NCBI GenBank assembly: GCA_038043025.1
Contig: JBBTCW010000006.1
Location: 26,710 to 90,709, forward strand
Length of the DNA stretch: 64,000 nucleotides
Direction: 5' to 3'
Source: Pseudomonadota bacterium
GTDB taxonomy: Bacteria > Pseudomonadota > Gammaproteobacteria > UBA12402
Each line of letters starts with the position of its first letter. The stretch's first letter is position 1. Of this stretch, positions 9,024-31,269 are shown one piece after another. The notes below the pieces were generated by a model. It was not told the origin of the DNA, did not search any database, and saw only the letters and a program-made list of their open reading frames with translations. The position numbers were made by a program, and so were the translations under genes.

Positions 9024-9036
9024 TGGGGGTGCGAAA

Positions 9037-18476: not shown

Positions 18477-18503
18477 ATTATGTGAAAAAGGGGCTTGTTT
18501 TAT

Positions 18504-19601
18504 ATGTTTAATAATGTGTATAAAAATCGTCGCGTTTTTGTTACGGGTCACACCGGGTTTAAAGGGAGCTGGTTAACGCAGTGGTTGTTAAATTTAGGGG
18601 CGGATATAGCCGGTTATTCTGTCGATATTCCCTCGCAACCCTCTTTGTATGAATTACTTCATTTAAAGGAAAAAATACGACAAGATTATAGGGACGATAT
18701 TAGAGATATTGATCGATTATCCCAGGCGATGGCGGATTTTCAGCCGGAAATTGTTTTTCATTTGGCGGCACAGCCAATTGTGCGTACATCGTTGGCAGAA
18801 CCCAAGTTAACATTTGATGTTAATTTAGGGGGAACAGTTAATATATTAGATGCGATACGTCATATTGATTCTATTGTTGCTGCAGTATTTATTACCAGCG
18901 ATAAATGTTATGAAAATGTAGAATGGGAATATGGTTATCGTGAAACAGATGTGTTGGGAGGAAAAGATCCTTATAGTGCATCGAAGGCGTGTGCTGAAAT
19001 GGCCATTAGTGCTTATGAGCGTTCGTTCTATCAAGATTCAAATCAGGCGCTGGTGTCAGCGCGAGCGGGTAATGTTATTGGCGGAGGAGACTGGGCTAAA
19101 GATCGCATTGTGCCTGATTGCATGCGTGCGTGGGCCAAAGGAGAAACTGTCGAAGTGCGACGACCTACAGCCATTCGACCTTGGCAACATGTGCTAGATC
19201 CATTGGGCGGCTATTTGGATTTGGGTGCGCGGTTGTATGCAAAAGATAAAGATGTGATTGGCGAGGCGTTTAATTTTGGTCCGTTGTCAGAAACGTATTT
19301 AACGGTAGGCGAGTTAGTGAAAAGGTTGAGTAACGTTTGGGGCGAGTCTGCGCATTCAAAATTGTTTAATTGCGAAATGCAAAGTCGTGAGGCAGGTTTA
19401 TTGAAACTATGCTGTGATAAGGCGTTGGCGCGACTTAATTGGTCCGCCACCTTAAGTTTTTCTGAAGCGATCATGTTTACGGGAGAGTGGTATCGTGATT
19501 ATTATCGGTCTTCTAAAGAAAGCATGGTAGACATGACTAATGCTCAAATTGAAAAATATGTACATTTAGCAAAAGAGCGAGGTCGATTTTGGGCGCAATA
19601 G
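18504..19601 (+). CDS. rfbG: CDP-glucose 4,6-dehydratase
   Basis: N-terminus MFNNVYKNRRVFVTGHTGFKGSWLTQWL is diagnostic of CDP-glucose 4,6-dehydratases. YSASK YxxxK present. Start at the second ATG of the ORF. Confidence 0.8.
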   Translation: MFNNVYKNRRVFVTGHTGFKGSWLTQWLLNLGADIAGYSVDIPSQPSLYELLHLKEKIRQDYRDDIRDIDRLSQAMADFQPEIVFHLAAQPIVRTSLAEPKLTFDVNLGGTVNILDAIRHIDSIVAAVFITSDKCYENVEWEYGYRETDVLGGKDPYSASKACAEMAISAYERSFYQDSNQALVSARAGNVIGGGDWAKDRIVPDCMRAWAKGETVEVRRPTAIRPWQHVLDPLGGYLDLGARLYAKDKDVIGEAFNFGPLSETYLTVGELVKRLSNVWGESAHSKLFNCEMQSREAGLLKLCCDKALARLNWSATLSFSEAIMFTGEWYRDYYRSSKESMVDMTNAQIEKYVHLAKERGRFWAQ

Positions 19602-20059
19602 AAATAAATCAGCCCATGATCGATGGGGTCTATGTTACACCGCTTAAAAAATTTACGGATGAGCGGGGGATGGTGATGCATATATTGAGTGATATGCAAT
19701 TATCTACTGTTCGAGAAGTCTATGCATCGCTTATCAAAAGCACGGCGATCAAAGCCTGGAAGCGTCATCATAAGATGGTGCAACATTATGCCGTTCCGAT
19801 TGGTAAAATTAAATTAGTATTATTTGACAATCGTCTGAATTCTTCTACCCATAATAGGGTTCAGGAAATAGTGACAGGCATTGATTATTATGGTCTCATT
19901 CAAATTCCGCCCATGGTTTGGTATGGTTTTGAAAGTTTATCAGATGGAGATTCGTTGATTGTTAATGGCGCTTCTTTGCCACATGACCCAAATGAGGTTG
20001 ATTGCTTAGATAAAAATACTCGGGAAATTCCGTATGTATGGGGTGATAATTTAAATTGA
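19589..20059 (+). CDS. RmlC-like cupin NDP-sugar epimerase/isomerase (dTDP-4-dehydrorhamnose 3,5-epimerase family, short form)
   Basis: YVTPLKKFTDERGMVMHIL resembles the RmlC/FdtA cupin family. 156 aa, overlaps the rfbG stop. Confidence 0.5.
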   Translation: MGAIEINQPMIDGVYVTPLKKFTDERGMVMHILSDMQLSTVREVYASLIKSTAIKAWKRHHKMVQHYAVPIGKIKLVLFDNRLNSSTHNRVQEIVTGIDYYGLIQIPPMVWYGFESLSDGDSLIVNGASLPHDPNEVDCLDKNTREIPYVWGDNLN

Positions 20060-20084
20060 GAAATCTCCGCCGCTTGCGGCCGAG
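20051..20084. repeat. 34-bp dispersed hairpin repeat, copy 1 (TTAAATTGAGAAATCTCCGCCGCTTGCGGCCGAG)
   Basis: Near-identical copy at 50987-51020. Contains the imperfect hairpin CTCCGCCGC-ttg-CGGCcGAG. Begins at the stop codon of the upstream gene. Confidence 0.6.
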
Positions 20085-20195
20085 TTGTTGAAAAAATATA
20101 TCCAAGACCTAAGCTCGTAAATTTTACCGCTTTAAAATCGTGGGTTCCCGCTAGATGCTTGTCGGTGTTAATGGTTATTTGAGGGAGGGGAGTAA

Positions 20196-21884
20196 ATGAA
20201 GAACTGGTTACCTACGTTCCAGATGAACACTCGTAAGGGCGTGTTATTGCCGGTTTTTTATCTGTTTTTGGCGACATTGATATTTCATGGATTGACGCTG
20301 TTCAATAATGGAATTTTTTCGGATGGTTGGATAGGCTATATAATATTTATTGAGCATAATTTTGTTTGGATGAAAGCGGTTGACTCTGCAATGGGATTGC
20401 CCATTGACTATTATATTGATTGGGTTTCAATGTTGTTAGGATATGGGTTCATTATTAATTTGACTGGGTTTTTATCTGTTTTTATCGCTTCTTTATGTGT
20501 TTATTTGTCTTTGAGATTATTCAAGTCAATATCGTCTTCAATTGCCTTATTGGCTGCTTACGTTGTTATTATTTACCCGGGGGCGCTAACGACATTTTTT
20601 GGAGATGTGAATAATAATCATGTTTGTTATATATTGTTTTTTGTGGCGAGCTATTTTGGGCTTAAAAGTCAATCCATTGGTCAGTATAATATTTTTTCTA
20701 TCGCGCTGAGAGTTGGCAGCCTGTTGCTTTTTTTTATTAGTTTTTTCTTAAAATCTTTGCTTTGTTATTATGCTGTTTTTTTTGCGGCGCTGTATTGCTT
20801 GTCAATTCGAGATCAAAAAATCTTGTCGTTTAGAGCAAATATGAAATTTTTACTGCGAACATTAGATTTCTTTATTCTGCCGTTTTTGTTTTTTGTAATA
20901 GTGAGCGTTTTTTTTCCGGCTCATGGTGTTTATGCGGGGTATAATACGATTGCGTTTCCGGGATATTTTCTTTTTATTTATTGGCATTTACACTCGTTTT
21001 TTAATATTATTTTCTTTTCATGGGTTGTTGATTGTCTGTATGTGTTGTTTTTAATAGCGGGCGTTGTATGGGTGCTGCTTAAGCAAATACCCGTTTCGGT
21101 AATAATGAATTTAATGAAAAGACCATTAACCGATAAATGGTTTTTTCCCTACGGCGTGCTTTTGATTGTTGGTTTTGTGGCGTTGTGGATGGCCGTATTT
21201 CCCTATATTATGGTGCATATCGTGGTTGATAGTACGCGGGCAATAGGGACGTCCCATTATTCACTTTTGGTGCCCAGCGCAATGGCGATATTATTTGCAG
21301 GTATTTGGGGGTTGTGGTTTCAAAATAGTGATGGGCGGATTACTTCTGTTGGAAAAATTATATTTGTCGCATTGGCATTAGTATATGGCATTTTTTGGTA
21401 TCGAGGTTATTTACAATTGAGTGCTGAATCTGCCTTACAAAAAACCTTGATAAAACAATTTCAGAAGCATCCCGGCTGGGGAAATTATTCGATTTATTGG
21501 ATTCGGATATATTTTGACGGGGTACAACCCGTCTATAGCGGATATGAGTGGAGCGGTATCTTGAGTTATGTCTATGGCGGACATTCTCGATATGGTGAAT
21601 CATATAAATCGCGACAAACCTATAATTCAGTCTATTGGGACAAAACTTTTACGCCATTGGTTCGACAATTGTATAATATTGAAAAGTGGGATGAAAATGG
21701 CTGTCAAGCAACTATAAAAATTATTCCATTGAGCGAAGGTAAAAATCCCTATGTCATAGGAAGTTTATATTTATACTATAGGCTTTTAGATAAAAAACAA
21801 TTATCATCTTTTTTGGATCATTTGATGCAGGTAGAGGTTCGTCCCTATCAGTCTATAGAGGCAACACATTGTAAAAAAGTATAG
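20196..21884 (+). CDS. Polytopic integral membrane protein (candidate GT-C glycosyltransferase or O-antigen polymerase-like)
   Basis: 562 aa with many hydrophobic helices (FYLFLATLIFHGLTLF..., WVLLKQIPVSVIM...) and a hydrophilic C-terminal domain. No specific motif recognised. Confidence 0.4.
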   Translation: MKNWLPTFQMNTRKGVLLPVFYLFLATLIFHGLTLFNNGIFSDGWIGYIIFIEHNFVWMKAVDSAMGLPIDYYIDWVSMLLGYGFIINLTGFLSVFIASLCVYLSLRLFKSISSSIALLAAYVVIIYPGALTTFFGDVNNNHVCYILFFVASYFGLKSQSIGQYNIFSIALRVGSLLLFFISFFLKSLLCYYAVFFAALYCLSIRDQKILSFRANMKFLLRTLDFFILPFLFFVIVSVFFPAHGVYAGYNTIAFPGYFLFIYWHLHSFFNIIFFSWVVDCLYVLFLIAGVVWVLLKQIPVSVIMNLMKRPLTDKWFFPYGVLLIVGFVALWMAVFPYIMVHIVVDSTRAIGTSHYSLLVPSAMAILFAGIWGLWFQNSDGRITSVGKIIFVALALVYGIFWYRGYLQLSAESALQKTLIKQFQKHPGWGNYSIYWIRIYFDGVQPVYSGYEWSGILSYVYGGHSRYGESYKSRQTYNSVYWDKTFTPLVRQLYNIEKWDENGCQATIKIIPLSEGKNPYVIGSLYLYYRLLDKKQLSSFLDHLMQVEVRPYQSIEATHCKKV

Positions 21885-21909: not shown

Positions 21910-23238
21910 ATGACTAAAGCAGATCAATTAAAACAAGAAATACTCGATAAAGTGGCGGAGTATTATCAGTATGCTTTTAATCAAGCGCCCAAGCAGAATC
22001 GCATCTCTTATGCGGGTCGTGTGTTTGATGAGCGGGAAATGTTGAATTTAGTGGACGCATCGCTAGAGTTTTGGTTGACGGAAGGGCGATACGCGCAAGC
22101 ATTTGAAAAGAAATTCTCTGGCTTTTTAAACGTTAAATATACCGCATTAGTTAATTCAGGTTCTTCGGCTAATTTGCTTGCCTTTGCAACGTTGACATCA
22201 CCTTTGTTAAAGGATCGACAAGTTTTACCAAAGGATGAAATCATTACGATTGCGGCTGGGTTTCCGACAACAGTGACCCCTATTATTCAATATGGCGCGA
22301 CACCTGTTTTTGTCGATGTTGTATTAGCCGATGGGACGTACAATGTTGATTGTGCGCAATTAGAACAGGCGTTGTCAAATAAAACTAAAGCAGTGATGTT
22401 GGCGCATACATTAGGGAATCCATTTGATTTATCAAAAGTATTGGGGTTTTGTCAGAAAAATAATCTATGGTTAATTGAAGATAATTGTGATGCGCTTGGC
22501 TCTAAATATAATGGAAAATATACAGGAACTTTTGGCGATATTGCTACTAGTAGTTTTTATCCGCCGCATCATATTACCATGGGCGAAGGCGGCGCGGTTT
22601 ATACGAATAATCCATTGCTAAATAAGATTATGCGTTCCATGCGTGATTGGGGGCGTGATTGCTATTGTCATTCAGGCAAAGATAATAGCTGTGGAAAGCG
22701 ATTTGGGCAGCAACATGGCGAGTTACCTTATGGGTATGATCATAAATACGTGTATTCACATTTTGGTTATAACCTCAAGGCGACTGATTTGCAGGCAGCG
22801 ATTGGTTGTGCGCAATTAGAAAAATTAGATGGCTTTATAAAACGGCGTCGAGAAAGTTGGCAATATTTGAGAGATGCGCTGTCGATGTTTGATAAATATT
22901 TTATTTTGCCTAATGCAACGCAGAAGAGTGAGCCAAGTTGGTTTGGTTTCTTGATGACGGTTAAAGAAAACGTCGGCTTTTCGCGCGCAGACATGGTGAC
23001 TCATTTAGAAGAACACAATATTCAAACGCGCATGTTGTTTGCAGGGAATTTAATTCGCCATCCTTGTTTTGATCAGCTGAGAGCAAAAGGAGTCGACTAT
23101 CGAGTGATCGGAAATTTAAAAAACACCGATGATATTATGAATAACACTTTCTGGATTGGCGTGTATCCGGGATTAGGTAAAGCGCAGCTGGATTATATGA
23201 TTCAAACGATTTCGCAATTTATCCAATCCATCCAATAG
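21910..23238 (+). CDS. rfbH: CDP-6-deoxy-D-xylo-4-hexulose-3-dehydrase (E1, DegT-fold PMP/[2Fe-2S] enzyme)
   Basis: 442-aa DegT-fold protein with a clustered cysteine motif WGRDCYCHSGKDNSCGKRFG, typical of the E1 iron-sulfur site. Size and N-terminus fit RfbH/DdhC. Confidence 0.7.
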   Translation: MTKADQLKQEILDKVAEYYQYAFNQAPKQNRISYAGRVFDEREMLNLVDASLEFWLTEGRYAQAFEKKFSGFLNVKYTALVNSGSSANLLAFATLTSPLLKDRQVLPKDEIITIAAGFPTTVTPIIQYGATPVFVDVVLADGTYNVDCAQLEQALSNKTKAVMLAHTLGNPFDLSKVLGFCQKNNLWLIEDNCDALGSKYNGKYTGTFGDIATSSFYPPHHITMGEGGAVYTNNPLLNKIMRSMRDWGRDCYCHSGKDNSCGKRFGQQHGELPYGYDHKYVYSHFGYNLKATDLQAAIGCAQLEKLDGFIKRRRESWQYLRDALSMFDKYFILPNATQKSEPSWFGFLMTVKENVGFSRADMVTHLEEHNIQTRMLFAGNLIRHPCFDQLRAKGVDYRVIGNLKNTDDIMNNTFWIGVYPGLGKAQLDYMIQTISQFIQSIQ

Positions 23239-24731
23239 GTCATTTTTGTTTTGCGCTGTTTATTTTCAAGTACTTTTTTATCTTGATAAAAGCTATCATC
23301 AGTATAATGCGTAGTAGATATTTCTTCGAAGATGGCGCCGTTGTTGGATTTAAAGTTATGATCTACGCCACGCTCAACGGTGACCATTTCGCCCGTGCTA
23401 ACTTCTTTGCTCGCGCCATCCAGCTCGACCGCCATATCGCCATAAAGCAGATGAAATGTTTCTTCTTTCTTTTTATGATGATGTACCGGGTGTTTTTGTC
23501 CGGGTAATAAAATAATTAATTTTTTACAGTATTCTCGGTTAATACAATTGATAATGGCGGCGCCATATTCTTCATAGCGATCAATGCCGTAATGGTGCGA
23601 GAGCTCAAGCTCCAGTTGGTTGGGCAAGGCTATTTTGCTGGCCGCCAATATTTTTGTAATTTTTTTGATGATGTTTACAACGGTTGTTCGTGAGTTTTTA
23701 ATAATGAGATCATTGTAAGTGATGGCGGTTTTTTCTGTTACATCATTTTGTAGCGTGTAATCAGTGTATTTTGAAAACTCATTAGAAACAAGTTGCGCGT
23801 CGATATTGGGTATGGCATAAAAGATATTATCGGTTGTTAATTTATCACCTTTTTTTAAGTTGGATTTTGCAAAAACCCCGCGCTTTAAACCGCGTAAATC
23901 ATTGCCTTCTTTTTCCGAGATGGCTCGCCGTTTGTGAGTGACGCCGCATATGTCATAAGTTTCTTTTGCTGCTTGTAGCCATTGCTCGATTTGTTCAGGG
24001 GTTGAAGAATAAGCGTTTAATTCGTAGCGATCTGTGGCTAAACCGACATGGCGTTCAAAAAGTCCAGCGCCTTTTGCAATGGCGATTTTAATGGGGTCGA
24101 AATTATTGGGTGCTTCATGGGTCGAAAAACCAATGGAAATTTTTGAATAACGGTTTCTGAAAAAATCAATTTGGTTGAGCTCTAAATCTTGATTGGGTGT
24201 TGGATAAGCGCCAATGCAATGCATGAGCGCAAATTCTTTTTTTCGATGTTCAAAGAATGAGACAACTTTGTCAATATCTTCAAGTGAGGCGCCGGCGGTT
24301 GATGCAATAATAGGTTTGCTGGTTTGCGCAATTTTTTCTAATAAGGGCCAGTCGGTAAAAGAGCAACTGGCGATTTTAATGATGTCAAAGTCATGTGCTT
24401 CAATTAAGTCCACAGAGTTCTCATCAAACGGCGTGCAAATGGCGGTAAATCCATTATTAACGATTTCATCTTTGAGCGATTTTAAGTCATCGCGGTCTAA
24501 ACGTGTTTCAGAAAATCGTTTAATATATTTAATATCTTGTCGATGTTTGTAGTCAGGATGAATGAAAGTATCGAGGTCGCGGTATTGTAGTTTAAAGCCA
24601 AATTTGAAGGGAAATTTATGTTTAATTTTTCCCAGTTGTTGAATAATGGCTTTTCCATGCGCAACATCACCCATATGGTTGTTGGCCATTTCGAAGATAA
24701 AGAGTTGGTGAAAAATATCTGACGATGACAT
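23202..24731 (-). CDS. NeuB-family PEP-condensing synthase fused to SAF and C-terminal cupin domains
   Basis: N-terminus IFEMANNHMGDVAHGKAIIQQL (NeuB-type); SAF-like FAKSNLKKGDKLTTDNIFYAIP; C-terminus HPVHHHKKKEETFHLLYGDMAVELDG (cupin). 3' end convergently overlaps rfbH by 37 nt. Confidence 0.55.
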   Translation of the reverse strand: MSSSDIFHQLFIFEMANNHMGDVAHGKAIIQQLGKIKHKFPFKFGFKLQYRDLDTFIHPDYKHRQDIKYIKRFSETRLDRDDLKSLKDEIVNNGFTAICTPFDENSVDLIEAHDFDIIKIASCSFTDWPLLEKIAQTSKPIIASTAGASLEDIDKVVSFFEHRKKEFALMHCIGAYPTPNQDLELNQIDFFRNRYSKISIGFSTHEAPNNFDPIKIAIAKGAGLFERHVGLATDRYELNAYSSTPEQIEQWLQAAKETYDICGVTHKRRAISEKEGNDLRGLKRGVFAKSNLKKGDKLTTDNIFYAIPNIDAQLVSNEFSKYTDYTLQNDVTEKTAITYNDLIIKNSRTTVVNIIKKITKILAASKIALPNQLELELSHHYGIDRYEEYGAAIINCINREYCKKLIILLPGQKHPVHHHKKKEETFHLLYGDMAVELDGASKEVSTGEMVTVERGVDHNFKSNNGAIFEEISTTHYTDDSFYQDKKVLENKQRKTKMTYWMDWINCEIV

Positions 24732-24910: not shown

Positions 24911-26047
24911 ATGGCGATTACAGAATGCAGGGTTTGTGGTTATGGTTTTTTTGATGAGCCATTGCTGCAATATGCTAATATGCCAAAATCTGCTCAATTT
25001 TTACCCGTTGCGGCTTCTTTGAAAAATGATGAGGGTGTCGATCTAAATGTCTATCAATGCGCAGCTTGTGGTTTAGTGCAGTTGAATAGTCATCCAGTGC
25101 ATTATTACAGGGATGTCATACGTGCAGCCGCCTTTTCAGAGGAAATGAGAAAATTTCGATTGGATCAATTCGCTGGGTTTATCAAGCAGCACAATCTTGT
25201 TCAAAAAAAAGTCATCGAGATTGGGTGTGGGCGAGGGGAGTATTTATCACTTATTCGTGATTGTCATGTGGATGCTTATGGAATAGAAAATTCTGCAGCG
25301 TCAGTGGCATATTGCATTAAACATAAACTTAATGTTTTTCAAGACTTTATTGAGAGCAATGAACAGAAGGTTGCGCATGCTCCATTTGATGCGTTTTTGA
25401 TGTTAAGTTTTTTAGAACATCTGCCTCAGCCCAATGCGATACTTCAAGGAATATGCCGAAATTTGGCTGATGATGCCGTCGGGATTGTGGAAGTGCCAAA
25501 TTTTGATATGATTATTAAAAAGAAGCTTTTTTCTGAATTTATCAGTGATCACCTGTTTTATTTTACGCGAGATACGTTAATTGCGATCCTACAGTTAAAT
25601 GGATTTGACGTATTGGAATGTAAAAATGTGTGGTATGATTACATCCTTTCCGCAGTTGTCAAAAAACGAACACGTATGAGTTTGTCAGTGTTTTATAAAT
25701 CGCAAGAACAGTTGCAACAACGGGTTAGTGATTATCTGGATGGCTTTGGCGATCAAAAGGTAGCCATCTGGGGGGCGGGGCATCAGGCATTAGCGATGAT
25801 GTCTTTGATGCGCTTAGAAGATAGAATCAAATATGTGGTTGATTCTGCGCCGTTTAAGCAGGGCAAATATACCCCTGCCACGCATATCCCTATTGTGTCG
25901 CCTGAAATGTTGAATGTCGATCCTGTTGATGCGGTGATTGTAATGGCAGCCAGTTATTCAAATGAAGTTGTGCAAACATTGCGAAAAAATTTCAATAAAA
26001 ACTTAAATGTTGTTGTGTTAAAAGAGCATGATTTAGTAACAGCGTGA
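24911..26047 (+). CDS. NDP-hexose C-methyltransferase (TylC3-like; Zn-ribbon + SAM MTase + C-methyltransferase C-terminal domain)
   Basis: N-terminal Cys pairs CRVCG...CAACGLVQL typical of the TylC3 family zinc-binding domain. SAM motif VIEIGCGRGEY. C-terminal Rossmann-like IWGAGHQALAMMS. Confidence 0.65.
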   Translation: MAITECRVCGYGFFDEPLLQYANMPKSAQFLPVAASLKNDEGVDLNVYQCAACGLVQLNSHPVHYYRDVIRAAAFSEEMRKFRLDQFAGFIKQHNLVQKKVIEIGCGRGEYLSLIRDCHVDAYGIENSAASVAYCIKHKLNVFQDFIESNEQKVAHAPFDAFLMLSFLEHLPQPNAILQGICRNLADDAVGIVEVPNFDMIIKKKLFSEFISDHLFYFTRDTLIAILQLNGFDVLECKNVWYDYILSAVVKKRTRMSLSVFYKSQEQLQQRVSDYLDGFGDQKVAIWGAGHQALAMMSLMRLEDRIKYVVDSAPFKQGKYTPATHIPIVSPEMLNVDPVDAVIVMAASYSNEVVQTLRKNFNKNLNVVVLKEHDLVTA

Positions 26048-26103: not shown

Positions 26104-27216
26104 GTGAGGCATAAAGTGTTAGATCAAAATTTACGTCAGAGTGAAATAGAAAAGCGTAATCAATTACAACATAACAAGCCGCGTGTTTATGAGAAAATTA
26201 CACGGTTTAAAGATAAAGTTGAACGAGGAGAAAGTATTGCTATTATTCAATTTCAATATAATTATCAATGCAATTTTCGTTGTGAGCATTGTTCAATAAA
26301 AGGGTTTCAAGGCAAACAGGACAAGAGAAAATTTACGATAGAAGATGTAAAAAAGCTTTCATATGAGGCGGATGAAATGGGTTTGGCGCATTTGGTGATT
26401 ACGGGGGGGGAGCCGTTAATTTTTAAAGATTATGATGCATTGATAGCGGCTATTGATCCCAGCAAATTTTATATTAGTTCTGATACAAATGGTTGGTTTT
26501 TAGATGCTGAAAGAGCGCGTCATCTTAAAGAGATTGGCGTGGATAAAATTCAATTGAGTCTTGATAGCCTTGATGCGGATTCTCACGATGCGTTTAGAGG
26601 AGCGCCCGGATCACATGCGCGCGCGTTACGTGCGATTGATGCAGCGCAGAATGCTGGCTTAAATATTATTGTACAAACGGTTGTCACAAAGACCCGATTG
26701 CATACGGATGAATTTATTCGTTTTTTAGAGTTTTTAAATGCTAAAAATGTTGGCGTATTTGTGACTTATGCCAAACCTGTAGGCGCGTGGGAAGGGCATT
26801 TTGAAGAATTGGTTGATCTTGATGACATGGCTTATATGCGAGAGCTCGAGAAAAAACATAATGTATTTACGCATTTAACGCCGTCTTATGGATTGGATTT
26901 AGGTTGCTTAGCAGTTAAGCGAATGATTTCTGTTACACAATACGGTGATGTTTTGCCTTGCCCATATATTCATACATCGATAGGGAACGTATTTCAAGAG
27001 TCATTACAAAAGATTATTAATCGAGGGTTAAGTATTAAATATTTTGGCGAATATGTGGAGACTTGTTTGATCGCAGAAGATAGAAAATTTATCCATGATT
27101 ATGTGGTGAAAAAAATATATGGCAAGCCATTACCTGTTCCATATGATGAGGTGTTTGATGCGGAGAGCGATTATATAAAAGATAAGGTTGATGCGGCTTG
27201 GGTAGAGGTAGAGTAG
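26104..27216 (+). CDS. Radical SAM protein with SPASM/twitch-like C-terminal domain
   Basis: CNFRCEHC (CX3CX2C) and GGEPL motifs. C-terminal GDVLPCPY is SPASM-like. Apparent GTG start. Confidence 0.65.
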   Translation: MRHKVLDQNLRQSEIEKRNQLQHNKPRVYEKITRFKDKVERGESIAIIQFQYNYQCNFRCEHCSIKGFQGKQDKRKFTIEDVKKLSYEADEMGLAHLVITGGEPLIFKDYDALIAAIDPSKFYISSDTNGWFLDAERARHLKEIGVDKIQLSLDSLDADSHDAFRGAPGSHARALRAIDAAQNAGLNIIVQTVVTKTRLHTDEFIRFLEFLNAKNVGVFVTYAKPVGAWEGHFEELVDLDDMAYMRELEKKHNVFTHLTPSYGLDLGCLAVKRMISVTQYGDVLPCPYIHTSIGNVFQESLQKIINRGLSIKYFGEYVETCLIAEDRKFIHDYVVKKIYGKPLPVPYDEVFDAESDYIKDKVDAAWVEVE

Positions 27217-28286
27217 TGGAAAATTTAATAACGGTCATCGTTCCTGTTTATAATGCAGAGCAATATTTGCATCAGTGTTTGAGCAGCGTTGTGTGCCAGA
27301 CTTATCGCAATATAGAAGTGGTGCTGGTGGATGATGGATCCACCGATGGTGGCAGCAAAATATACAATGAATATGCGCTTGATGATAATCGAATTAAGAT
27401 AATTCGTACAGAAAATAATGGCCCCGCATCGGCCAGGAATCGGGCAATAAAAATTGCGCGTGGTGAATTTTTGTTTTTTCTTGATGCAGATGATTTTCTT
27501 GAACGAGATTCGCTAGCTGTATTGATTGAGTGGCATAAAGAAACGGGCGCTGATGTGATTATTGGTGGGTTCAATAAAATCAGAAATGACCATAGTGTTG
27601 TGCCTCAGAATATTTATTTAGATAAACAATTATTAGATTTATCGAGTGTTGCGCGGTATGCGATGCAATATTTGGAGAGACCTAATCGATTTTTGCTATT
27701 TGCCTATTCTTGGGGGAGGTTGTTTAAGACATCTATTGTGGAAGATAATAACATATTGTTTGATGCCGCGTTGCATACGTTTGAAGATGTAAAATTTAAT
27801 TTCGCATATTTACAATATGCAAAGAAAGTTTTTTATTCGGATAAGATTGTTTATAACCACTTAGCCCATGATAATTACGCATCGGCCACCATGGCAGTGT
27901 GCGATAATCCAAAAAAATTATTGGGATACCAACAGGCATTGAACGGCATAGAAGATTTCTTGAAAAGTCAGGGCGTTAATGAGGGCGTTAGAAAACAAAA
28001 AATGGGGCATGCATATATTTATTTAACTATTATTCAGTTAGTCCGTCTATGCGGGCAAATTACGACGCATAACCGGGGAAATATTTTTTTGCTGGTCAAG
28101 CAAGTGATTAATGATCCGCTGCTTCAGGTATATTTGCCCTGTTATTCTCCGTCTGGAAAAGATAGTCGAGTGCTTCCTGCATTAATGAAGTTAAAATTGA
28201 CATCGGCAATTATATGGCTTTGCCAATATAAGGCACAGAAAAGATATCAGAAAGCGGGTGTTGTTGGTACATGTGAGCGAAGGTAA
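27198..28286 (+). CDS. Glycosyltransferase family 2
   Basis: VIVPVYNAEQYL...VVLVDDGSTDG and LDADD (DXD) motifs. Confidence 0.7.
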   Translation: MGRGRVVENLITVIVPVYNAEQYLHQCLSSVVCQTYRNIEVVLVDDGSTDGGSKIYNEYALDDNRIKIIRTENNGPASARNRAIKIARGEFLFFLDADDFLERDSLAVLIEWHKETGADVIIGGFNKIRNDHSVVPQNIYLDKQLLDLSSVARYAMQYLERPNRFLLFAYSWGRLFKTSIVEDNNILFDAALHTFEDVKFNFAYLQYAKKVFYSDKIVYNHLAHDNYASATMAVCDNPKKLLGYQQALNGIEDFLKSQGVNEGVRKQKMGHAYIYLTIIQLVRLCGQITTHNRGNIFLLVKQVINDPLLQVYLPCYSPSGKDSRVLPALMKLKLTSAIIWLCQYKAQKRYQKAGVVGTCERR

Positions 28287-28290
28287 GTCG

Positions 28291-29496
28291 ATGTTGCAAT
28301 TTATTGAGGATATTAAAAGTCAAAAACGCCCCGTCGTAATATTTGGTGCAGGTATTGTAGGCGAAGTATTGTTTTGGGCGTGTCAACATTTTAAGTTAGA
28401 GGTGCACTCTTTTTGTGATAATAATGTTAATAAAACAAAAAGCACTTTATGCGGTATTGATGTTATTCTTACATCTGAATTAAGTGCGAAACATAATAAT
28501 CCCATTATCCTGATATCTGCTGCAGACATTCAAGATGTTGTTTTGCAATTACAGGAATTGGGATATGAAGAGTGGTATTCTTGCGCTTCTTTTTTAAGAG
28601 CATTTGATGTCTTTCAATACAAATTTAGTGCGCCATCCGATTTTGCTGACTATGCTGTTGCGACAGCCATCTTGTGTCATGATAGTTATCTAACGCCAGA
28701 CAAGCTTTTTTTGAGAAGCGTTGATATTGTTATCACTGAGCGCTGCTCTTTGAAATGTAGACATTGCTCAAATCTAATGCAATATTATAAGCACCCAAAA
28801 GACTGTAGCATGGAAGAGGTATTGCGGGATATTAATGCTTTTTGCTCAGTTGTGGATGAGGTGAATGAGTTTCGTTTAATAGGTGGTGAGCCTTTTATGA
28901 ATAAGGATTTCCACGTGATATTAGATAGGTTGGTCAATGAGGCAAAAGCAAAAAAGGTGGTTATCTATACGAATGGCACCATTATTCCCCAGACGCATCA
29001 GCTTGAATCTTTAAAGGATAAAAAAGTGCTGGTTATCATTACGGATTATGGAGAATTGTCTAGAAACTTACAGAAATTGCTTGATGTGTTAAAAGTTAAC
29101 ACTATTAATTTTTATTTGCATAAGGTAGAAGGATGGACAGATTGCGCAAGCATCGTGAAACATGCGCGCGCACTCGTGCAGCAAAAAGAACTGTTTAGGA
29201 AATGCTGTGCAAAAAATACGACGACTTTATTGGGAGGAAAATTATATCGCTGTCCTTTCGCTGCCAATATTCATCGGCTTGGGGCAGTGTTGAATTGTAA
29301 GCATGATTATATTGATTTTTTTAAAGAACCTCAGGCTCTTGAGTTTATGAAAAAGAGTATTAAAGAATATTTGTTGCAAAAAGAATTTCTTGAGATATGT
29401 GACTATTGTGATGGGCGATCTTTTGGGGACGCAGAGATCGCGCCGGCGGCACAAATCAAGCAGCCTTTGGTGTGCGATGAAATTGAAACATTTTAA
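28291..29496 (+). CDS. Radical SAM protein with N-terminal Rossmann-like domain and Cys-rich C-terminus
   Basis: VVIFGAGIVGEVL N-terminus; CSLKCRHC (CX3CX2C); IGGEPFMN; additional C-terminal Cys residues (CPFAAN, CDYCDG). Start chosen at an internal ATG with an RBS; the ORF could begin at 28258. Confidence 0.55.
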   Translation: MLQFIEDIKSQKRPVVIFGAGIVGEVLFWACQHFKLEVHSFCDNNVNKTKSTLCGIDVILTSELSAKHNNPIILISAADIQDVVLQLQELGYEEWYSCASFLRAFDVFQYKFSAPSDFADYAVATAILCHDSYLTPDKLFLRSVDIVITERCSLKCRHCSNLMQYYKHPKDCSMEEVLRDINAFCSVVDEVNEFRLIGGEPFMNKDFHVILDRLVNEAKAKKVVIYTNGTIIPQTHQLESLKDKKVLVIITDYGELSRNLQKLLDVLKVNTINFYLHKVEGWTDCASIVKHARALVQQKELFRKCCAKNTTTLLGGKLYRCPFAANIHRLGAVLNCKHDYIDFFKEPQALEFMKKSIKEYLLQKEFLEICDYCDGRSFGDAEIAPAAQIKQPLVCDEIETF

Positions 29497-29514
29497 GATA
29501 GAGGGTTATATAAA

Positions 29515-31227
29515 TTGAATATACTGTTTATTTTTCCGCTTAATGAGCCATATAATAGCATAGTAAATGCGACTCAAACGCCGTGGAAATCCAAATTAAG
29601 CGCATATAAAAACATAAAAAAACTAGATTGCGCCTATCCAACCGGATTATTGTCTATTGCGGCGTATGTTAAAAAAAGTATTCCGGATGTTAATATAAAG
29701 ATTTTAGACATTAATGCGGTGATGGTTCGTGTCGCACAGAGAAAAAATGAGTGCTCGGAGAGCTTTGACGAATATACACGTGAAGATTTGTTAAAAGAAG
29801 CTTTATCTAATCTTGATGGCTTTGCTCCAGATATTATCGGGATTTCTTTGTTGTTTTGTAGTAATTATCGGGATTTGGGCGCGCTGGCATTTTTTTTGCG
29901 AAAAGCATATCAAGAAAGTTTGATTGTTTGTGGTGGGCACCTAGCCTCGGCGAGCTATGATCGTATATATGAGGATGATTTTGAAATTGATGCAATTGTA
30001 TTTGGTGAGGGTGAGCGGCCGTTGCTTGAACTGACACAAGCCAGGCTAGAGGAGAAGCAAGTACAATATTTAGAGGAAAGCCCCTCATGGGTGACAAAAG
30101 AAAAAGCGCAGTCGAAATCGAAGTTTATTCCTGAGAATAAAGTGATTGTTGATTTGGATGAGATTCCTCCTTTTGATTTAAGTATGTTGATATTTTCTGA
30201 TGTCTATTTTAATTCGACAAGATATTTTTTTGTCATTGACTCTCAATCCAATCACAATGAAATGTTTATATTTTCAACACGCGGGTGTCCTTATAAATGT
30301 GTATTTTGTGCGTCTCAAAATGTACACGGCCATAAAGTAAGATCTTATAGTGTAGATAGGATAAAACAAGATATTTTGTATTATCATGAAAAATATAATA
30401 TCGATAGATTTATTTTTTATGATGACCATTTTTTAATTTATAAAAAAAGAGCTATCGAGATATTAAATTTCATTTCACAAAAACATCTTATTGCCGAAGT
30501 TCCTACGCCAGCTTTTTTTTCGATTAATAAAGAAACCGCTGCAGCCATGCGGCAAGCGGGTATAAAAGAAGTGAACATTACGATTGAAAGCGGCAATAGT
30601 GATACGTTAAAAAATATTATACATAAACCGGGGGATTTAAAGAGGGCAGAGGAGGCAGTCGATTGTCTTCATCGAGAAGGCATTGTGGTTGTTTCGAATA
30701 TTTTGATTGGGTTGCCGGGCGAAACAGCGCAATCGATTGATAAGGGATTGGCATATTTAATGACAACCGAGATCGATTGGTTTCAATGTTTTGTTGTTGC
30801 GCCGCTTCCCGGGAGTGAATTATATAAAATCTGCGAAGAAAATGATTATTTGGTTAGGAATTATGATTTATCCACAATGGATTACAAAAAATGTTTAATT
30901 AAAACTAAGGATTTTGATCCAACATATATTGAAAACAAAGCATATGAGATGAATTTAATCCTAAACTTTGTCAATAATTACAATATGCGACAAGGAAAAT
31001 ATGATTTGGCATTGCGACTTTTTGAAAGAGTGATTAATACTGTAATAGATACACATGCCTTTGCATATTATTATGCGGCCATATGTTGTAAACAATTAAG
31101 TTTAGACGATAAATATCTTGTGTATAAAAGGAAATATGAGGAAATGATTGAAAGATTTATATTTTGGAACGCTTATGCTGACAAGTTTAAATTAAAACAA
31201 TTAAGTTCTATTGATGTTTTGATGTGA
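29515..31227 (+). CDS. Cobalamin-binding (class B) radical SAM protein
   Basis: N-terminal B12-binding-like domain followed by STRGCPYKCVFCAS (CX3CX2C... wait: CPYKCVFC). 570 aa. Confidence 0.65.
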   Translation: MNILFIFPLNEPYNSIVNATQTPWKSKLSAYKNIKKLDCAYPTGLLSIAAYVKKSIPDVNIKILDINAVMVRVAQRKNECSESFDEYTREDLLKEALSNLDGFAPDIIGISLLFCSNYRDLGALAFFLRKAYQESLIVCGGHLASASYDRIYEDDFEIDAIVFGEGERPLLELTQARLEEKQVQYLEESPSWVTKEKAQSKSKFIPENKVIVDLDEIPPFDLSMLIFSDVYFNSTRYFFVIDSQSNHNEMFIFSTRGCPYKCVFCASQNVHGHKVRSYSVDRIKQDILYYHEKYNIDRFIFYDDHFLIYKKRAIEILNFISQKHLIAEVPTPAFFSINKETAAAMRQAGIKEVNITIESGNSDTLKNIIHKPGDLKRAEEAVDCLHREGIVVVSNILIGLPGETAQSIDKGLAYLMTTEIDWFQCFVVAPLPGSELYKICEENDYLVRNYDLSTMDYKKCLIKTKDFDPTYIENKAYEMNLILNFVNNYNMRQGKYDLALRLFERVINTVIDTHAFAYYYAAICCKQLSLDDKYLVYKRKYEEMIERFIFWNAYADKFKLKQLSSIDVLM

Positions 31228-31269
31228 AAAGTAATTTAGTTTTTAAAAATTTATAATTAGGAGGGAATC

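What the first reader, a model, noticed from the sequence alone, without database searches (positions are those of the whole stretch)
24911..26047. TylC3-type NDP-hexose C-methyltransferase
The Zn-ribbon Cys pairs, class I SAM motif and C-terminal Rossmann domain together are typical of sugar 3-C-methyltransferases such as those in mycarose pathways. A 3-C-methyl-6-deoxyhexose such as virenose (known from Coxiella burnetii phase I LPS) would need exactly this enzyme plus 4,6-dehydratase, epimerase and reductase activities, all of which are present nearby. Organism identity is not established.
Basis: partly seen in the sequence, partly recalled or inferred. Interest (0 to 1): 0.6.

Follow-up and report, generated by a model that had tools for sequence, protein, structure and literature searches.

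The report
Sugar C-methyltransferase in branched-sugar module
The gene is a real sugar C-methyltransferase of the TylC3/TcaB9 type, but it belongs to an unstudied subfamily that travels in many uncultured microbes with genes for building a complex branched 3,6-dideoxy sugar, not the virenose-like sugar first suggested.

Summary
The ORF at 24911-26047 (+, 378 aa) is real. Its only full-length structural relatives are the sugar C-3 methyltransferases KijD1, TcaB9 and MtmC, and both catalytic histidines of TcaB9 are invariant.

It is only about 20-25% identical to those enzymes. Coxiella's virenose candidate CBU_0691 is 42-44% identical to TylCIII. This protein belongs to a separate, unnamed ~378-aa subfamily found in more than 20 phyla, all uncultured.

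In 47 loci from different species it co-occurs with:
- a YerE-like ThDP carboligase (44/47);
- a radical SAM/SPASM enzyme (43/47);
- a NeuB-type synthase (43/47);
- RfbH (37/47);
- glucose-1-phosphate cytidylyltransferase and CDP-glucose 4,6-dehydratase (32/47 each).

The window has no Gmd, RmlA/RmlB or Fcl. The other 4,6-dehydratase nearby is LegB, part of a complete legionaminic acid pathway.

Best reading: a CDP-sugar C-methyltransferase in a variant of the YerE-type acyl-branched 3,6-dideoxyhexose pathway. The methylated carbon is unknown. The fold assignment is supported; the virenose pathway is not.

The parts
24911..26047 (+). The finding: 378-aa Zn-ribbon / class I SAM / Methyltransf_14 putative nucleotide-sugar C-methyltransferase, in a new subfamily of the TcaB9/KijD1/MtmC (TylC3-like) fold
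   Evidence: ORF; Pfam; PDB sequence and profile hits; fold search; subfamily alignment A1
24926..25090 (+). N-terminal Zn-ribbon (residues 6-60) with C6, C9, C50 and C53
   Evidence: All four Cys are invariant in 31 sequences. Methyltransf_13 scores 25.4 bits, below the 31.3 cut-off. The region aligns with the TcaB9/MtmC Zn domain.
25193..25618 (+). Class I SAM-binding methyltransferase core (residues 95-236), including motif I EIGCGRGE, E126, H170 (= TcaB9 H181) and D213-H214 (= TcaB9 E224-H225)
   Evidence: Methyltransf_23, 63.9 bits; invariant columns; residue mapping from the HMMER alignment
25691..26008 (+). C-terminal Rossmann-like 'C-methyltransferase C-terminal domain' (residues 261-366)
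   Evidence: Methyltransf_14, 58.1 bits vs cut-off 23.5; model pLDDT 82-91 in this region
26104..27216 (+). Radical SAM/SPASM enzyme, the methyltransferase's tightest partner; reaction unknown
   Evidence: Radical_SAM + SPASM. Present in 43/47 loci at median 66% identity, directly downstream of the methyltransferase in at least 17 loci. CX3CX2C plus three more invariant Cys. Only generic PDB relatives.
23202..24731 (-). NeuB-type synthase fused to a Cupin_2 domain; proposed supplier of a 3-deoxy-2-keto acid donor. Inverted here relative to the canonical gene order.
   Evidence: NeuB 138.5 bits + Cupin_2 39.6 bits; far below the NeuB/PseI equivalog cut-offs; best PDB hit 3g8r at E 3e-118; orthologue in 33/47 loci, any NeuB-type synthase in 43/47
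34247..36055 (+). YerE-like ThDP-dependent carboligase (acyl-branching enzyme)
   Evidence: TPP_enzyme N/M/C domains. Best PDB hits are JanthE 8rph (E 3e-119) and 5ahk (7e-85), ahead of true acetolactate synthases at 1e-73 or weaker. Below all acetolactate synthase equivalog cut-offs. Present in 44/47 loci.
21910..23238 (+). RfbH / E1, CDP-6-deoxy-D-xylo-4-hexulose 3-dehydrase
   Evidence: NF011936, 721.9 bits vs cut-off 423; 37/47 loci
18495..19601 (+). CDP-glucose 4,6-dehydratase (RfbG/DdhB)
   Evidence: TIGR02622, 465.6 bits vs cut-off 278; 32/47 loci
42719..43504 (+). Glucose-1-phosphate cytidylyltransferase (RfbF/DdhA), displaced about 17 kb downstream in this genome
   Evidence: TIGR02623, 305.4 bits vs cut-off 300.25; 32/47 loci
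36052..36927 (+). RmlD-like SDR directly after the ThDP enzyme (YerF-like branch ketoreductase candidate)
   Evidence: Epimerase/RmlD_sub_bind; 23/47 loci; follows TPP in the canonical order
36921..37439 (+). NUDIX protein resembling GDP-mannose mannosyl hydrolase
   Evidence: NUDIX 24.9 bits vs cut-off 21.1; NF011963 43 bits, below cut-off; 29/47 loci; directly upstream of the methyltransferase in 16 loci
32831..34250 (+). ArnC/PgfS-like polyprenyl-phosphate glycosyltransferase (GT2, 32831-33772) plus GtrA-like membrane protein (33744-34250): proposed export of the finished sugar on a lipid carrier
   Evidence: Pfam; NCBIfam PgfS 184.6 and ArnC 105.7 bits, both below cut-off; GT2 in 24/47 loci; three TM-like segments in GtrA
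27198..32820 (+). Accessory genes found in only some module variants: GT2 (27198-28286), radical SAM with a Methyltransf_14-like N-terminal domain (28258-29496), and two B12-binding radical SAM enzymes (29515-31227, 31270-32820)
   Evidence: found in 4-14 of 47 loci
19589..21884 (+). RmlC-like small ORF (19589-20059; weak, below cut-off) and a 562-aa protein with 11 predicted TM segments (20196-21884; candidate polytopic transferase or polymerase). Both lie within the module region but are not conserved with it.
   Evidence: dTDP_sugar_isom 23.7 bits vs cut-off 27; hydropathy scan; found in 0-2 of 47 loci

Best explanation
The gene encodes a SAM-dependent nucleotide-sugar C-methyltransferase. 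It has the three-domain TcaB9/KijD1/MtmC (TylC3-like) architecture but belongs to a distinct, uncharacterised ~378-aa subfamily.

Inferred mechanism, by homology to TcaB9: the Zn-ribbon and the C-terminal domain hold an NDP-linked keto-sugar. His214 (= TcaB9 His225) removes a proton from the carbon next to a keto group, His170 (= His181) stabilises the enolate, and the carbanion attacks the SAM methyl.

Inferred pathway, from conserved gene context: the substrate is a CDP-linked intermediate of a YerE-type acyl-branched 3,6-dideoxyhexose route.
1. Glucose-1-phosphate is converted to CDP-glucose (RfbF).
2. CDP-glucose becomes CDP-4-keto-6-deoxyglucose (RfbG).
3. RfbH then gives CDP-4-keto-3,6-dideoxyglucose.
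4. A YerE-like ThDP enzyme adds an acyl branch at C-4. The donor is a 3-deoxy-2-keto acid made by the NeuB-cupin protein.
5. An SDR, the radical SAM/SPASM enzyme and this methyltransferase tailor the sugar.
6. An ArnC-like GT2 with GtrA then loads it onto a polyprenyl phosphate for surface display.

Shown here: the architecture, the conserved catalytic histidines, the identities of RfbF, RfbG and RfbH, the YerE-like affinity of the ThDP enzyme, and the co-occurrence statistics. Inferred: the nucleotide (CDP), the order of steps, and the methylated carbon. Candidates for that carbon are ring C-3 (a CH2 after RfbH), ring C-5, or branch C-2' next to the new ketone.
For: - Architecture: three domains by Pfam.
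- Sequence: the only PDB matches below E 1e-17 are sugar C-3 methyltransferases (MtmC 4rv9, TcaB9 3ndi and others, KijD1 5t64/5t6b), aligned over residues 3-354 with the profile.
- Fold: the top 18 hits are the same three enzymes at E 2e-22 to 2e-19. After them comes a gap of about 10 orders of magnitude to generic class I methyltransferases that match only the core.
- Catalytic residues: H170, D213-H214 and the four Zn Cys are invariant across 31 members. They map onto TcaB9 H181, E224-H225 and its Zn site. The PDB titles of 4e2w-4e31 confirm that those residues were the ones probed.
- Fusions: nine of ten long relatives are fused behind an extended-SDR nucleotide-sugar domain.
- Context: RfbF, RfbG and RfbH are equivalog-level calls above cut-off. 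The ThDP enzyme is closest to JanthE and to 5ahk.
- Co-occurrence within +/-10 kb in 47 loci from different species: TPP 44, radical SAM/SPASM 43, any NeuB-type synthase 43, RfbH 37, RfbF 32, RfbG 32, NUDIX 29, GT2 24, SDR 23. No legionaminic acid gene or other island gene has a counterpart at 40% identity or more in over one locus.
- Gene order: a canonical order recurs across phyla.
- Literature: the published scheme for acyl-branched sugars uses the same acceptor, a YerE-like enzyme and an alpha-keto acid donor (PMC9306805; PMC12247030).
Against: - No biochemical data exist for any subfamily member.
- Identity to characterised enzymes is only 19-25%.
- The Methyltransf_13 match is below Pfam's cut-off.
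- Two of the five active-site residues probed in TcaB9 are lost: Tyr76 is Ile70 and Tyr222 is Ile211.
- The model is uncertain in the Zn-ribbon and active-site loops (pLDDT below 50 at residues 19-31, 40-45, 63-75 and 211-216; pTM 0.58).
- No E3 (AscD/DdhD-type) reductase for RfbH was found among window ORFs of 150 aa or more.
- In this genome the module is scattered: RfbF lies 17 kb away and NeuB-cupin is inverted.
- The nucleotide specificity and the carbon attacked are not shown. No locus lacking the ThDP enzyme or NeuB could be found to tell ring methylation from branch methylation.
Confidence: 0.62

Rival explanations
1. The enzyme is a classical TylC3/CBU_0691-type 3-C-methyltransferase acting on a dTDP- or GDP-4-keto-6-deoxyhexose that keeps its 3-OH. 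The product would be a mycarose- or virenose-like 3-C-methyl-6-deoxyhexose for LPS.
For: The fold and catalytic histidines match the C-3 methyltransferases. A mannose-1-phosphate guanylyltransferase-like gene lies at 41808-42722 (366 bits vs cut-off 373). Several SDRs of unassigned specificity are in the window (43486-44484, 61573-62541).
Against: CBU_0691 is 42-44% identical to TylCIII, EryBIII and AviG1, and 30% identical (E 4e-49) to MtmC. This protein reaches only E 7e-22 and about 19-25% identity to MtmC. No Gmd, RmlA, RmlB or Fcl equivalog is in the window. The strongest GDP_Man_Dehyd hit is LegB of the legionaminic acid pathway. Across 47 species the conserved neighbours are the CDP-glucose route with the RfbH 3-dehydrase and a YerE-like enzyme, not a dTDP or GDP 6-deoxyhexose set. 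TcaB9's Tyr76 and Tyr222 are replaced by aliphatic residues.
Confidence: 0.1
2. The enzyme uses the same fold for O- or N-methylation, adding a methyl to a hydroxyl or amino group of the branched sugar or its side chain. The M. gastri branched sugar (as I recall its structure) and the 3-O-methyl R. palustris sugar carry such O-methyl groups.
For: A His general base also suits O-methylation. The R. palustris branched-sugar cluster contains a SAM methyltransferase, and the sugar is 3-O-methylated. Two DegT aminotransferases lie nearby at 37426-39878.
Against: Every characterised or solved full-length relative is a C-methyltransferase. Both the base and the enolate-stabilising histidine are invariant. 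The family of the R. palustris methyltransferase is unknown to me, so it offers no direct support.
Confidence: 0.13
3. The enzyme methylates the free alpha-keto acid donor (the NeuB product) at its C-3 methylene before ThDP-dependent transfer. This would resemble the keto-acid C-methyltransferases I recall from other pathways.
For: C-3 of a 3-deoxy-2-keto acid is acidic and chemically suited to the same enolate mechanism. A NeuB-type synthase accompanies the methyltransferase in 43/47 loci.
Against: The Zn-ribbon and the Methyltransf_14 domain, which accompany NDP-sugar substrates in the solved relatives, are fully retained. Nine of ten fusions are to nucleotide-sugar SDR domains. In operons the closest neighbours are the NUDIX protein and the radical SAM/SPASM enzyme, not NeuB.
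Confidence: 0.1

Closest known systems
TcaB9 (Micromonospora chalcea, D-tetronitrose), KijD1 (Actinomadura kijaniata) and MtmC (Streptomyces argillaceus, D-mycarose): the solved TylC3-like NDP-sugar C-3 methyltransferases
   Same: Three-domain architecture: Zn-ribbon, class I SAM domain and a Rossmann-like C-terminal domain. Full-length sequence and fold matches. The four Zn Cys, TcaB9 His181 and His225 are conserved, and Glu224 is conservatively Asp.
   Different: Only 19-25% identical. About 30-45 residues shorter (378 vs 416-426 aa), with deletions between the core and the C-terminal domain. Tyr76 and Tyr222 are replaced by Ile. Found in surface-glycan islands of uncultured bacteria and archaea, not actinomycete antibiotic clusters. 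The context points to CDP-linked 3,6-dideoxy substrates, not dTDP-linked ones.
Coxiella burnetii CBU_0691 (proposed virenose 3-C-methyltransferase)
   Same: Same Pfam-level family and an LPS context (PMC3539893).
   Different: CBU_0691 is 42-44% identical to TylCIII, EryBIII and AviG1 (E about 1e-120). It is proposed to work with Gmd and a GDP-4-keto-6-deoxymannose epimerase/reductase, or with RmlB. This protein is far more distant from that clade, and the window lacks those partners.
YerE-type acyl-branched sugar pathways (yersiniose A, erwiniose, caryophyllose, 'gastriose')
   Same: The CDP-glucose to CDP-4-keto-3,6-dideoxyglucose genes (RfbF/G/H = DdhA/B/C). A YerE-like ThDP carboligase, with an SDR directly downstream as for YerE-YerF. 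Cell-surface glycan context (PMC9306805, PMC12247030).
   Different: Published clusters make the donor with a pyruvate aldolase, and none is described with a TcaB9-fold methyltransferase or a radical SAM enzyme. This module has a NeuB-type PEP-condensing synthase (usually cupin-fused), a NUDIX protein, this methyltransferase, a radical SAM/SPASM enzyme and an ArnC-like GT2 with GtrA. The survey of more than 200 YerE-like clusters (Krug et al. 2024) could not be read.

Membership tests
TcaB9/KijD1/MtmC/TylC3-type NDP-sugar C-methyltransferases (Methyltransf_13 + class I MT + Methyltransf_14) | N-terminal four-Cys zinc-binding domain | tested here: met
   C6, C9, C50 and C53 are invariant in 31 sequences and align with the Zn domain of TcaB9 and MtmC. 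Caveat: the Pfam Methyltransf_13 score of 25.4 is below the 31.3 cut-off, and zinc binding itself was not tested.
TcaB9/KijD1/MtmC/TylC3-type NDP-sugar C-methyltransferases (Methyltransf_13 + class I MT + Methyltransf_14) | Class I SAM-binding Rossmann core with glycine-rich motif I and an acidic ribose-binding residue | tested here: met
   Methyltransf_23, 63.9 bits. E103, G105, G107, G109 and E126 are invariant.
TcaB9/KijD1/MtmC/TylC3-type NDP-sugar C-methyltransferases (Methyltransf_13 + class I MT + Methyltransf_14) | C-terminal 'C-methyltransferase C-terminal domain' | tested here: met
   Methyltransf_14, 58.1 bits vs cut-off 23.5. The full-length Foldseek alignment to 5t6b, 3ndi and 4rv9 spans 406-431 columns.
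TcaB9/KijD1/MtmC/TylC3-type NDP-sugar C-methyltransferases (Methyltransf_13 + class I MT + Methyltransf_14) | Catalytic His base (TcaB9 His225) and second active-site His (His181) | tested here: met
   H214 and H170 are invariant and aligned to those positions. Glu224 is an invariant Asp213. The roles of these residues in TcaB9 are from my recollection of Bruender & Holden 2012. The PDB titles confirm only that they were mutated.
TcaB9/KijD1/MtmC/TylC3-type NDP-sugar C-methyltransferases (Methyltransf_13 + class I MT + Methyltransf_14) | Active-site tyrosines (TcaB9 Tyr76 and Tyr222) near the hexose | tested here: not met
   These positions align to Ile70 (conserved in at least 90%) and Ile211 (a variable column).
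TcaB9/KijD1/MtmC/TylC3-type NDP-sugar C-methyltransferases (Methyltransf_13 + class I MT + Methyltransf_14) | Orthologue-level similarity to characterised members (CBU_0691 is 42-44% identical to TylCIII) | tested here: not met
   19-22% identity by Foldseek; HMMER E 7e-22 to 1e-17. No NCBIfam equivalog matches.
TcaB9/KijD1/MtmC/TylC3-type NDP-sugar C-methyltransferases (Methyltransf_13 + class I MT + Methyltransf_14) | C-3 methylation of a dTDP-4-keto-6-deoxyhexose | not testable with these tools
   Needs an enzyme assay. The genomic context favours CDP-linked 3,6-dideoxy substrates.
   The best Gmd score in the proteins scanned is 89.6 vs cut-off 415, and the best RmlB score is 168.9 vs 365. 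Both belong to LegB. No RmlA equivalog was found. A Man-1-P guanylyltransferase-like gene is present (366 vs 373).
   Best Fcl score is 70 vs cut-off 500. The SDRs conserved with the methyltransferase are RfbG and an RmlD-like enzyme that follows the ThDP enzyme.
YerE-type acyl-branched 3,6-dideoxyhexose pathway | DdhA/RfbF, DdhB/RfbG and DdhC/RfbH (E1) making CDP-4-keto-3,6-dideoxyglucose | tested here: met
   TIGR02623 305.4 vs 300.25; TIGR02622 465.6 vs 278.45; NF011936 721.9 vs 423. They co-occur with the methyltransferase in 32-37 of 47 loci.
YerE-type acyl-branched 3,6-dideoxyhexose pathway | E3 (DdhD/AscD) reductase partner of E1 | tested here: not met
   No ferredoxin-reductase-type protein was found among the window ORFs of 150 aa or more that were scanned. 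It may be encoded elsewhere in the genome.
YerE-type acyl-branched 3,6-dideoxyhexose pathway | YerE-like ketone-accepting ThDP carboligase | tested here: met
   Met at the homology level. JanthE 8rph (E 3e-119) and 5ahk (7e-85) outrank all acetolactate synthases. JanthE's identity as a YerE-like enzyme comes from PMC12188165. That 5ahk is PpYerE is my recollection. Activity was not tested.
YerE-type acyl-branched 3,6-dideoxyhexose pathway | Aldolase-derived alpha-keto acid donor and a YerF-like reductase | tested here: inconclusive
   No pyruvate aldolase was found. A NeuB-type synthase is present instead, in 43/47 loci. An RmlD-like SDR follows the ThDP enzyme, but its role is unproven.

The most novel reading that the evidence does not exclude
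The methyltransferase and its radical SAM/SPASM partner, together with a NeuB-cupin synthase and a YerE-like ThDP enzyme, make an undescribed sugar: a higher-carbon, C-methylated, C-4-acyl-branched 3,6-dideoxyhexose. The donor chain would come from a PEP-derived ulosonic acid and not from an aldolase product. The sugar would be displayed through a polyprenyl-phosphate carrier on the surfaces of bacteria and archaea in more than 20 mostly uncultured phyla, including CPR and DPANN lineages. In this reading the methyltransferase has a regiochemistry new to its family: a deoxy C-3 methylene, C-5, or the side-chain C-2'.
Probability: 0.35. Interest if true: 0.72.

Novelty: new variant of a known kind. 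Interest (0 to 1): 0.52.

Why it matters
C-methylated and C-branched sugars are rare, and they shape how cell surfaces are recognised by phages, hosts and immune systems. If the model is right, there are three consequences:
- The TcaB9/TylC3 enzyme family extends from actinomycete antibiotic pathways into cell-surface glycans of many uncultured lineages, with a probable new substrate class (CDP-linked, 3-deoxy).
- A NeuB-type synthase becomes a new way to supply donors to YerE-like carboligases, which are of interest as biocatalysts for tertiary alcohols.
- A compact 10-12 gene cassette becomes available for heterologous expression, to discover the sugar and to assign a function to a widespread orphan radical SAM enzyme.

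It also corrects an attractive but unsupported link to Coxiella virenose.

Tried and rejected
- Virenose or mycarose route. Rejected after NCBIfam found no Gmd, RmlA, RmlB or Fcl and identified the nearby dehydratases as LegB and CDP-glucose 4,6-dehydratase.
- "NeuB-less minimal module". L043, L048, L054 and L067 seemed to lack NeuB, but L043 carries a stand-alone NeuB (257 bits) plus a HAD phosphatase. The idea was dropped.
- Modules without the ThDP enzyme, looked for to tell ring methylation from branch methylation. L057's module runs off the locus end, L055's contig leaves only about 3.5 kb upstream, and L078 is ambiguous. Inconclusive.
- Shared Zn-ribbon between the methyltransferase and the 412-aa radical SAM. 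Rejected (BLASTP E 9.3). A resemblance between that enzyme's N-terminus and the methyltransferase's C-terminal domain is not significant pairwise (z = 0.3). It is marginal at profile level (Methyltransf_14 22.6 bits vs cut-off 23.5).
- Cultured or mobile carriers. Plasmid and phage collections hold no subfamily member; the best identities are 29% and 37.5%.
- Partner SDR from fusions. The fused SDR domains have no close counterpart in the window, at most 31% identity.
- Function of the radical SAM/SPASM. Single-sequence and profile searches of the PDB return only generic SPASM/twitch enzymes.
- Literature. No paper in the held library describes this module. The TcaB9 mechanism paper, the JanthE paper and the Krug et al. 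survey are not held.
- R. palustris methyltransferase as a precedent. That sugar is O-methylated, so it does not support C-methylation.
- Correction. I first labelled PDB 4rv9 as TylC3; it is MtmC.
Full report
**1. The observation**

An ORF runs exactly from 24911 to 26047 on the + strand (ATG start, 378 aa). It has an AAGGG Shine-Dalgarno-like sequence about 8 nt upstream, and its homologues align from residues 1-3.

Pfam finds three domains:

| Domain | Residues | Score (bits) | Cut-off (bits) |
|---|---|---|---|
| Methyltransf_13 (Zn-binding) | 6-60 | 25.4 | 31.3 |
| Methyltransf_23 (class I SAM core) | 95-236 | 63.9 | 27 |
| Methyltransf_14 (C-methyltransferase C-terminal domain) | 261-366 | 58.1 | 23.5 |

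The Zn-ribbon score is below Pfam's cut-off. Even so, C6, C9, C50 and C53 are invariant in an alignment of 31 relatives (A1). So are motif I (E103, G105, G107, G109) and the acidic residue E126.

**2. Closest characterised relatives**

By sequence, the only strong PDB matches are the sugar C-3 methyltransferases MtmC (4rv9), TcaB9 (3ndi and its mutants) and KijD1 (5t64, 5t6b). E-values are 7e-22 to 2e-17 for the single sequence and 9e-26 to 4e-22 for the subfamily profile, which aligns over residues 3-354.

An AlphaFold model built on A1 has mean pLDDT 77.6. The core and the C-terminal domain are confident; the Zn-ribbon and active-site loops are weak. Foldseek against the PDB returns the same three enzymes as the top 18 hits (E 2e-22 to 2e-19, 406-431 aligned columns, 19-22% identity). 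After them comes a drop of about 10 orders of magnitude to generic class I methyltransferases that match only the core. TM-scores are low (about 0.43) because the relative placement of the domains in the model is uncertain (pTM 0.58).

The profile alignment maps onto the TcaB9 residues that were mutated in PDB entries 4e2w-4e31 (native numbering is SEQRES minus 2):

| TcaB9 residue | This protein | Conservation in the subfamily |
|---|---|---|
| His181 | His170 | invariant |
| His225 | His214 | invariant |
| Glu224 | Asp213 | invariant |
| Tyr76 | Ile70 | Tyr lost; Ile in 90% or more |
| Tyr222 | Ile211 | Tyr lost; variable column |

As I recall from Bruender & Holden 2012, which I could not read here, His225 is the base and His181 stabilises the enolate. 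The machinery for enolate-type C-methylation next to a ketone therefore appears intact. Two residues that lie near the hexose in TcaB9 have become aliphatic.

**3. A separate subfamily**

The database holds one 100% identical protein, from an NCBI MAG labelled "Pseudomonadota bacterium" and from ENA groundwater assemblies. Below it come more than 100 proteins at 57-64% identity. Nearly all are 375-396 aa, and none has a functional name. No NCBIfam equivalog matches.

A scan of one genome per species found relatives in 259 genomes. The best 80 are all MAGs, spread over more than 20 phyla. These include Patescibacteria, Omnitrophota, Nitrospirota, Planctomycetota, Elusimicrobia, Margulisiibacteriota, Micrarchaeota and Pacearchaeota. 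A census of 1.84 billion cluster representatives gives 555 clusters at E of 1e-30 or better.

For comparison, the Coxiella virenose candidate CBU_0691 is 42-44% identical to TylCIII, EryBIII and AviG1 (E about 1e-120). It is 30% identical (E 4e-49) to the S. argillaceus enzyme MtmC (PMC3539893). The window protein is clearly further from that clade. No member of the subfamily is present in the plasmid or phage collections.

**4. Context in the window**

The whole 64 kb is one glycan-biosynthesis island, almost entirely on the + strand.

The region 5634-14689 is a complete Campylobacter-type legionaminic acid pathway. It holds LegB (524.9 bits vs cut-off 475), a DegT aminotransferase, a hydrolysing 2-epimerase, NeuB, a CBS-nucleotidyltransferase, a GFO/IDH oxidoreductase, a CMP-sugar synthetase and an SDR. 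The most obvious "GDP_Man_Dehyd" gene near the methyltransferase is therefore already accounted for.

NCBIfam names three other genes above their curated cut-offs:

| Window coordinates | Call | Score vs cut-off (bits) |
|---|---|---|
| 42719-43504 | glucose-1-phosphate cytidylyltransferase | 305.4 vs 300.25 |
| 18495-19601 | CDP-glucose 4,6-dehydratase | 465.6 vs 278.45 |
| 21910-23238 | RfbH, the E1 3-dehydrase | 721.9 vs 423 |

No protein approaches the cut-offs for Gmd, RmlA, RmlB or Fcl. The deoxysugar route available to the methyltransferase is CDP-linked and leads to a 3,6-dideoxy-4-keto sugar.

**5. Conserved neighbours across phyla**

Contexts of four homologues from unrelated lineages showed the same neighbours. 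I then compared all window ORFs with the six-frame ORFs of 47 loci of at least 15 kb, each from a different species. A hit had to cover at least 60% of the query.

| Window gene | Loci with a homologue within +/-10 kb (of 47) | Median identity |
|---|---|---|
| ThDP enzyme (34247-36055) | 44 | 54% |
| radical SAM/SPASM (26104-27216) | 43 | 66% |
| RfbH (21910-23238) | 37 | 54% |
| NeuB-cupin (23202-24731) | 33 | 57% |
| cytidylyltransferase (42719-43504) | 32 | 47% |
| CDP-glucose dehydratase (18495-19601) | 32 | 44% |
| 172-aa NUDIX (36921-37439) | 29 | 50% |
| GT2 (32831-33772) | 24 | 57% |
| RmlD-like SDR (36052-36927) | 23 | 56% |

No legionaminic acid gene or other island gene has a counterpart at 40% identity or more in over one locus.

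Loci that seemed to lack NeuB-cupin carry a stand-alone NeuB with a HAD phosphatase. Counting either type, a NeuB-type synthase is present in 43/47 loci. Of the four exceptions, three are cut off at a contig or locus edge and one (L078) is unclear.

A canonical order recurs: RfbF-RfbG-RfbH-NeuBcupin-ThDP-SDR-NUDIX-MT-(B12 rSAM)-rSAM/SPASM-GT2-GtrA. In this window the same genes are present but rearranged. NeuB-cupin is inverted, RfbF lies 17 kb downstream, and extra radical SAM and GT2 genes are inserted.

**6. What the partners are**

- ThDP enzyme. It is closest to JanthE (8rph, E 3e-119) and to 5ahk (E 7e-85), ahead of every true acetolactate synthase (1e-73 or weaker). It falls below all acetolactate synthase equivalog cut-offs. 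JanthE is a characterised YerE-like enzyme that accepts ketones (PMC12188165). That 5ahk is the Pseudomonas protegens YerE is my recollection. The window enzyme has the canonical GDG motif, not JanthE's CDG.
- YerE-like enzymes. They add the decarboxylated chain of an alpha-keto acid to C-4 of CDP-4-keto-3,6-dideoxyglucose. The resulting sugars include yersiniose, erwiniose, caryophyllose and "gastriose". In published clusters the donor comes from a pyruvate aldolase, and a YerF-like reductase follows (PMC9306805; PMC12247030).
- NeuB-type synthase. Enzymes of this family condense PEP with an aldehyde to give a 3-deoxy-2-keto acid, which is itself an alpha-keto acid. I therefore infer that NeuB-cupin replaces the aldolase as the donor supplier.
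- NUDIX protein. It resembles GDP-mannose mannosyl hydrolase and could release a free aldose for the NeuB condensation. This is speculative.
- GT2 and GtrA. The GT2 is ArnC/PgfS-like and sits next to a GtrA-like protein. PMT_2/TPR (GT-C) genes lie near the module in L004, L005 and L043. This pattern suggests transfer to a polyprenyl phosphate followed by attachment outside the membrane.
- Radical SAM/SPASM. It keeps CX3CX2C and three further invariant Cys. It resembles only generic SPASM/twitch enzymes (MoaA, SkfB, BlsE, PqqE, anSME, BtrN), so its reaction is unknown.

**7. Independent link to nucleotide sugars**

Among the 150 best family representatives, ten are much longer than 378 aa. In nine of them the methyltransferase follows an extended-SDR nucleotide-sugar epimerase/dehydratase/reductase domain. 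These SDR domains have no close counterpart in the window. They support the general chemistry of the family but do not point to a specific partner here.

**8. Mechanism and its limits**

The most likely function is SAM-dependent C-methylation of a CDP-linked keto-sugar intermediate of this branched-sugar pathway. His214 would act as the base and His170 would stabilise the enolate.

Three carbons are chemically eligible:
- ring C-3, which is a methylene once RfbH has acted;
- ring C-5;
- side-chain C-2', the PEP-derived methylene next to the ketone left by the ThDP reaction.

The replacement of TcaB9's Tyr76 and Tyr222 by aliphatic residues would suit a substrate with no heteroatom at C-3, but this is only suggestive. 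I found no natural module variant that lacks the ThDP enzyme or NeuB, which could have separated these options. No E3 reductase for RfbH was seen among ORFs of 150 aa or more.

**9. Comparison with what is known, and verdict**

It is not an orthologue of TylC3 or CBU_0691.

The module is a variant of the YerE-type acyl-branched sugar pathway. It differs in having a NeuB-type donor supplier, a TcaB9-fold methyltransferase and a radical SAM/SPASM enzyme. I found no description of this combination in the held literature. I could not read the survey of more than 200 YerE-like clusters by Krug et al. 2024, so the novelty of the module is provisional.

I rate the finding as a new variant of a known kind, of moderate interest.

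Noticed in passing
window 5634-14689: A complete Campylobacter-type legionaminic acid pathway: LegB (525 bits vs cut-off 475), LegC-like DegT, hydrolysing UDP-GlcNAc 2-epimerase, NeuB, CBS-nucleotidyltransferase (PtmE-like), GFO/IDH oxidoreductase, CMP-sugar synthetase and an SDR. An oppositely oriented class I methyltransferase sits at 10105-10935.
   Followed up: partly
window 36-4424; also L065:15529-17424: A split transketolase (N and pyrimidine-binding halves) is followed by a radical SAM, an HldE-like kinase/cytidylyltransferase and a nucleotidyltransferase. Split transketolases are proposed as sugar-branching enzymes (PMC12247030), so this may be a second branched or higher-sugar route. 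A similar TK_N/TK_C pair lies downstream of the methyltransferase in L065.
   Followed up: no
window 28258-29496 (residues 10-97); L006:10205-11425: The 412-aa radical SAM has an N-terminal domain matching Pfam Methyltransf_14, the C-terminal domain of sugar C-methyltransferases. The score is 22.6 bits against a cut-off of 23.5; the L006 orthologue scores 15.6 bits. Pairwise alignment to the methyltransferase's own C-terminal domain is not significant (z = 0.3). It may be a shared NDP-sugar-binding module.
   Followed up: partly
window 29515-31227, 31270-32820, 55455-56921: Three B12-binding radical SAM enzymes lie in one glycan island, with distant similarity to P- and C-methylases. They could methylate unactivated carbons. 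Only the first has homologues in other module loci (14/47, low identity).
   Followed up: partly
L001 and L003 vs window 20196-21884 and 31270-32820: On sister contigs where the methyltransferase is 100% identical, two genes are split. The 562-aa 11-TM ORF becomes 170 + 256-259 aa, and the 516-aa B12 radical SAM becomes 55 + 355 aa. This could be strain-level pseudogenisation or phase variation of the glycan.
   Followed up: no
window 23202-23238: NeuB-cupin is on the minus strand here, although it shares the methyltransferase's strand in nearly all other loci. Its 3' end overlaps the 3' end of RfbH by 37 bp. The 179-bp divergent intergenic region with the methyltransferase has sigma-70-like hexamers on both strands.
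   Followed up: partly
window 49484-50950 and 60005-61432: A Schlafen/AlbA_2 + HATPase_c_4 protein and an ATPase_2/AAA protein sit inside the glycan island. They may be regulatory or defence-related insertions.
   Followed up: no
window 51030-55348: A non-hydrolysing-type UDP-GlcNAc 2-epimerase, a UDP-sugar dehydrogenase and an asparagine-synthase-type amidotransferase lie together. This suggests an amidated ManNAc-uronic acid component.
   Followed up: no
window 44493-48325: A GT2 fused to a polysaccharide deacetylase domain (586 aa) is followed by a 692-aa protein with a C-terminal FemAB/GNAT-like domain.
   Followed up: no
whole window: GC skew is positive in every 2-kb bin (0.10-0.29), and nearly all genes are on the + strand. 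This fits a leading-strand position. GC content is 33-44%.
   Followed up: no
P0121, P0122, P0156, P0180, P0191, P0222, P0228, P0236, P0258: These are natural fusions of an extended-SDR nucleotide-sugar domain to the N-terminus of the methyltransferase. P0258 also has a C-terminal zinc alcohol dehydrogenase domain.
   Followed up: partly
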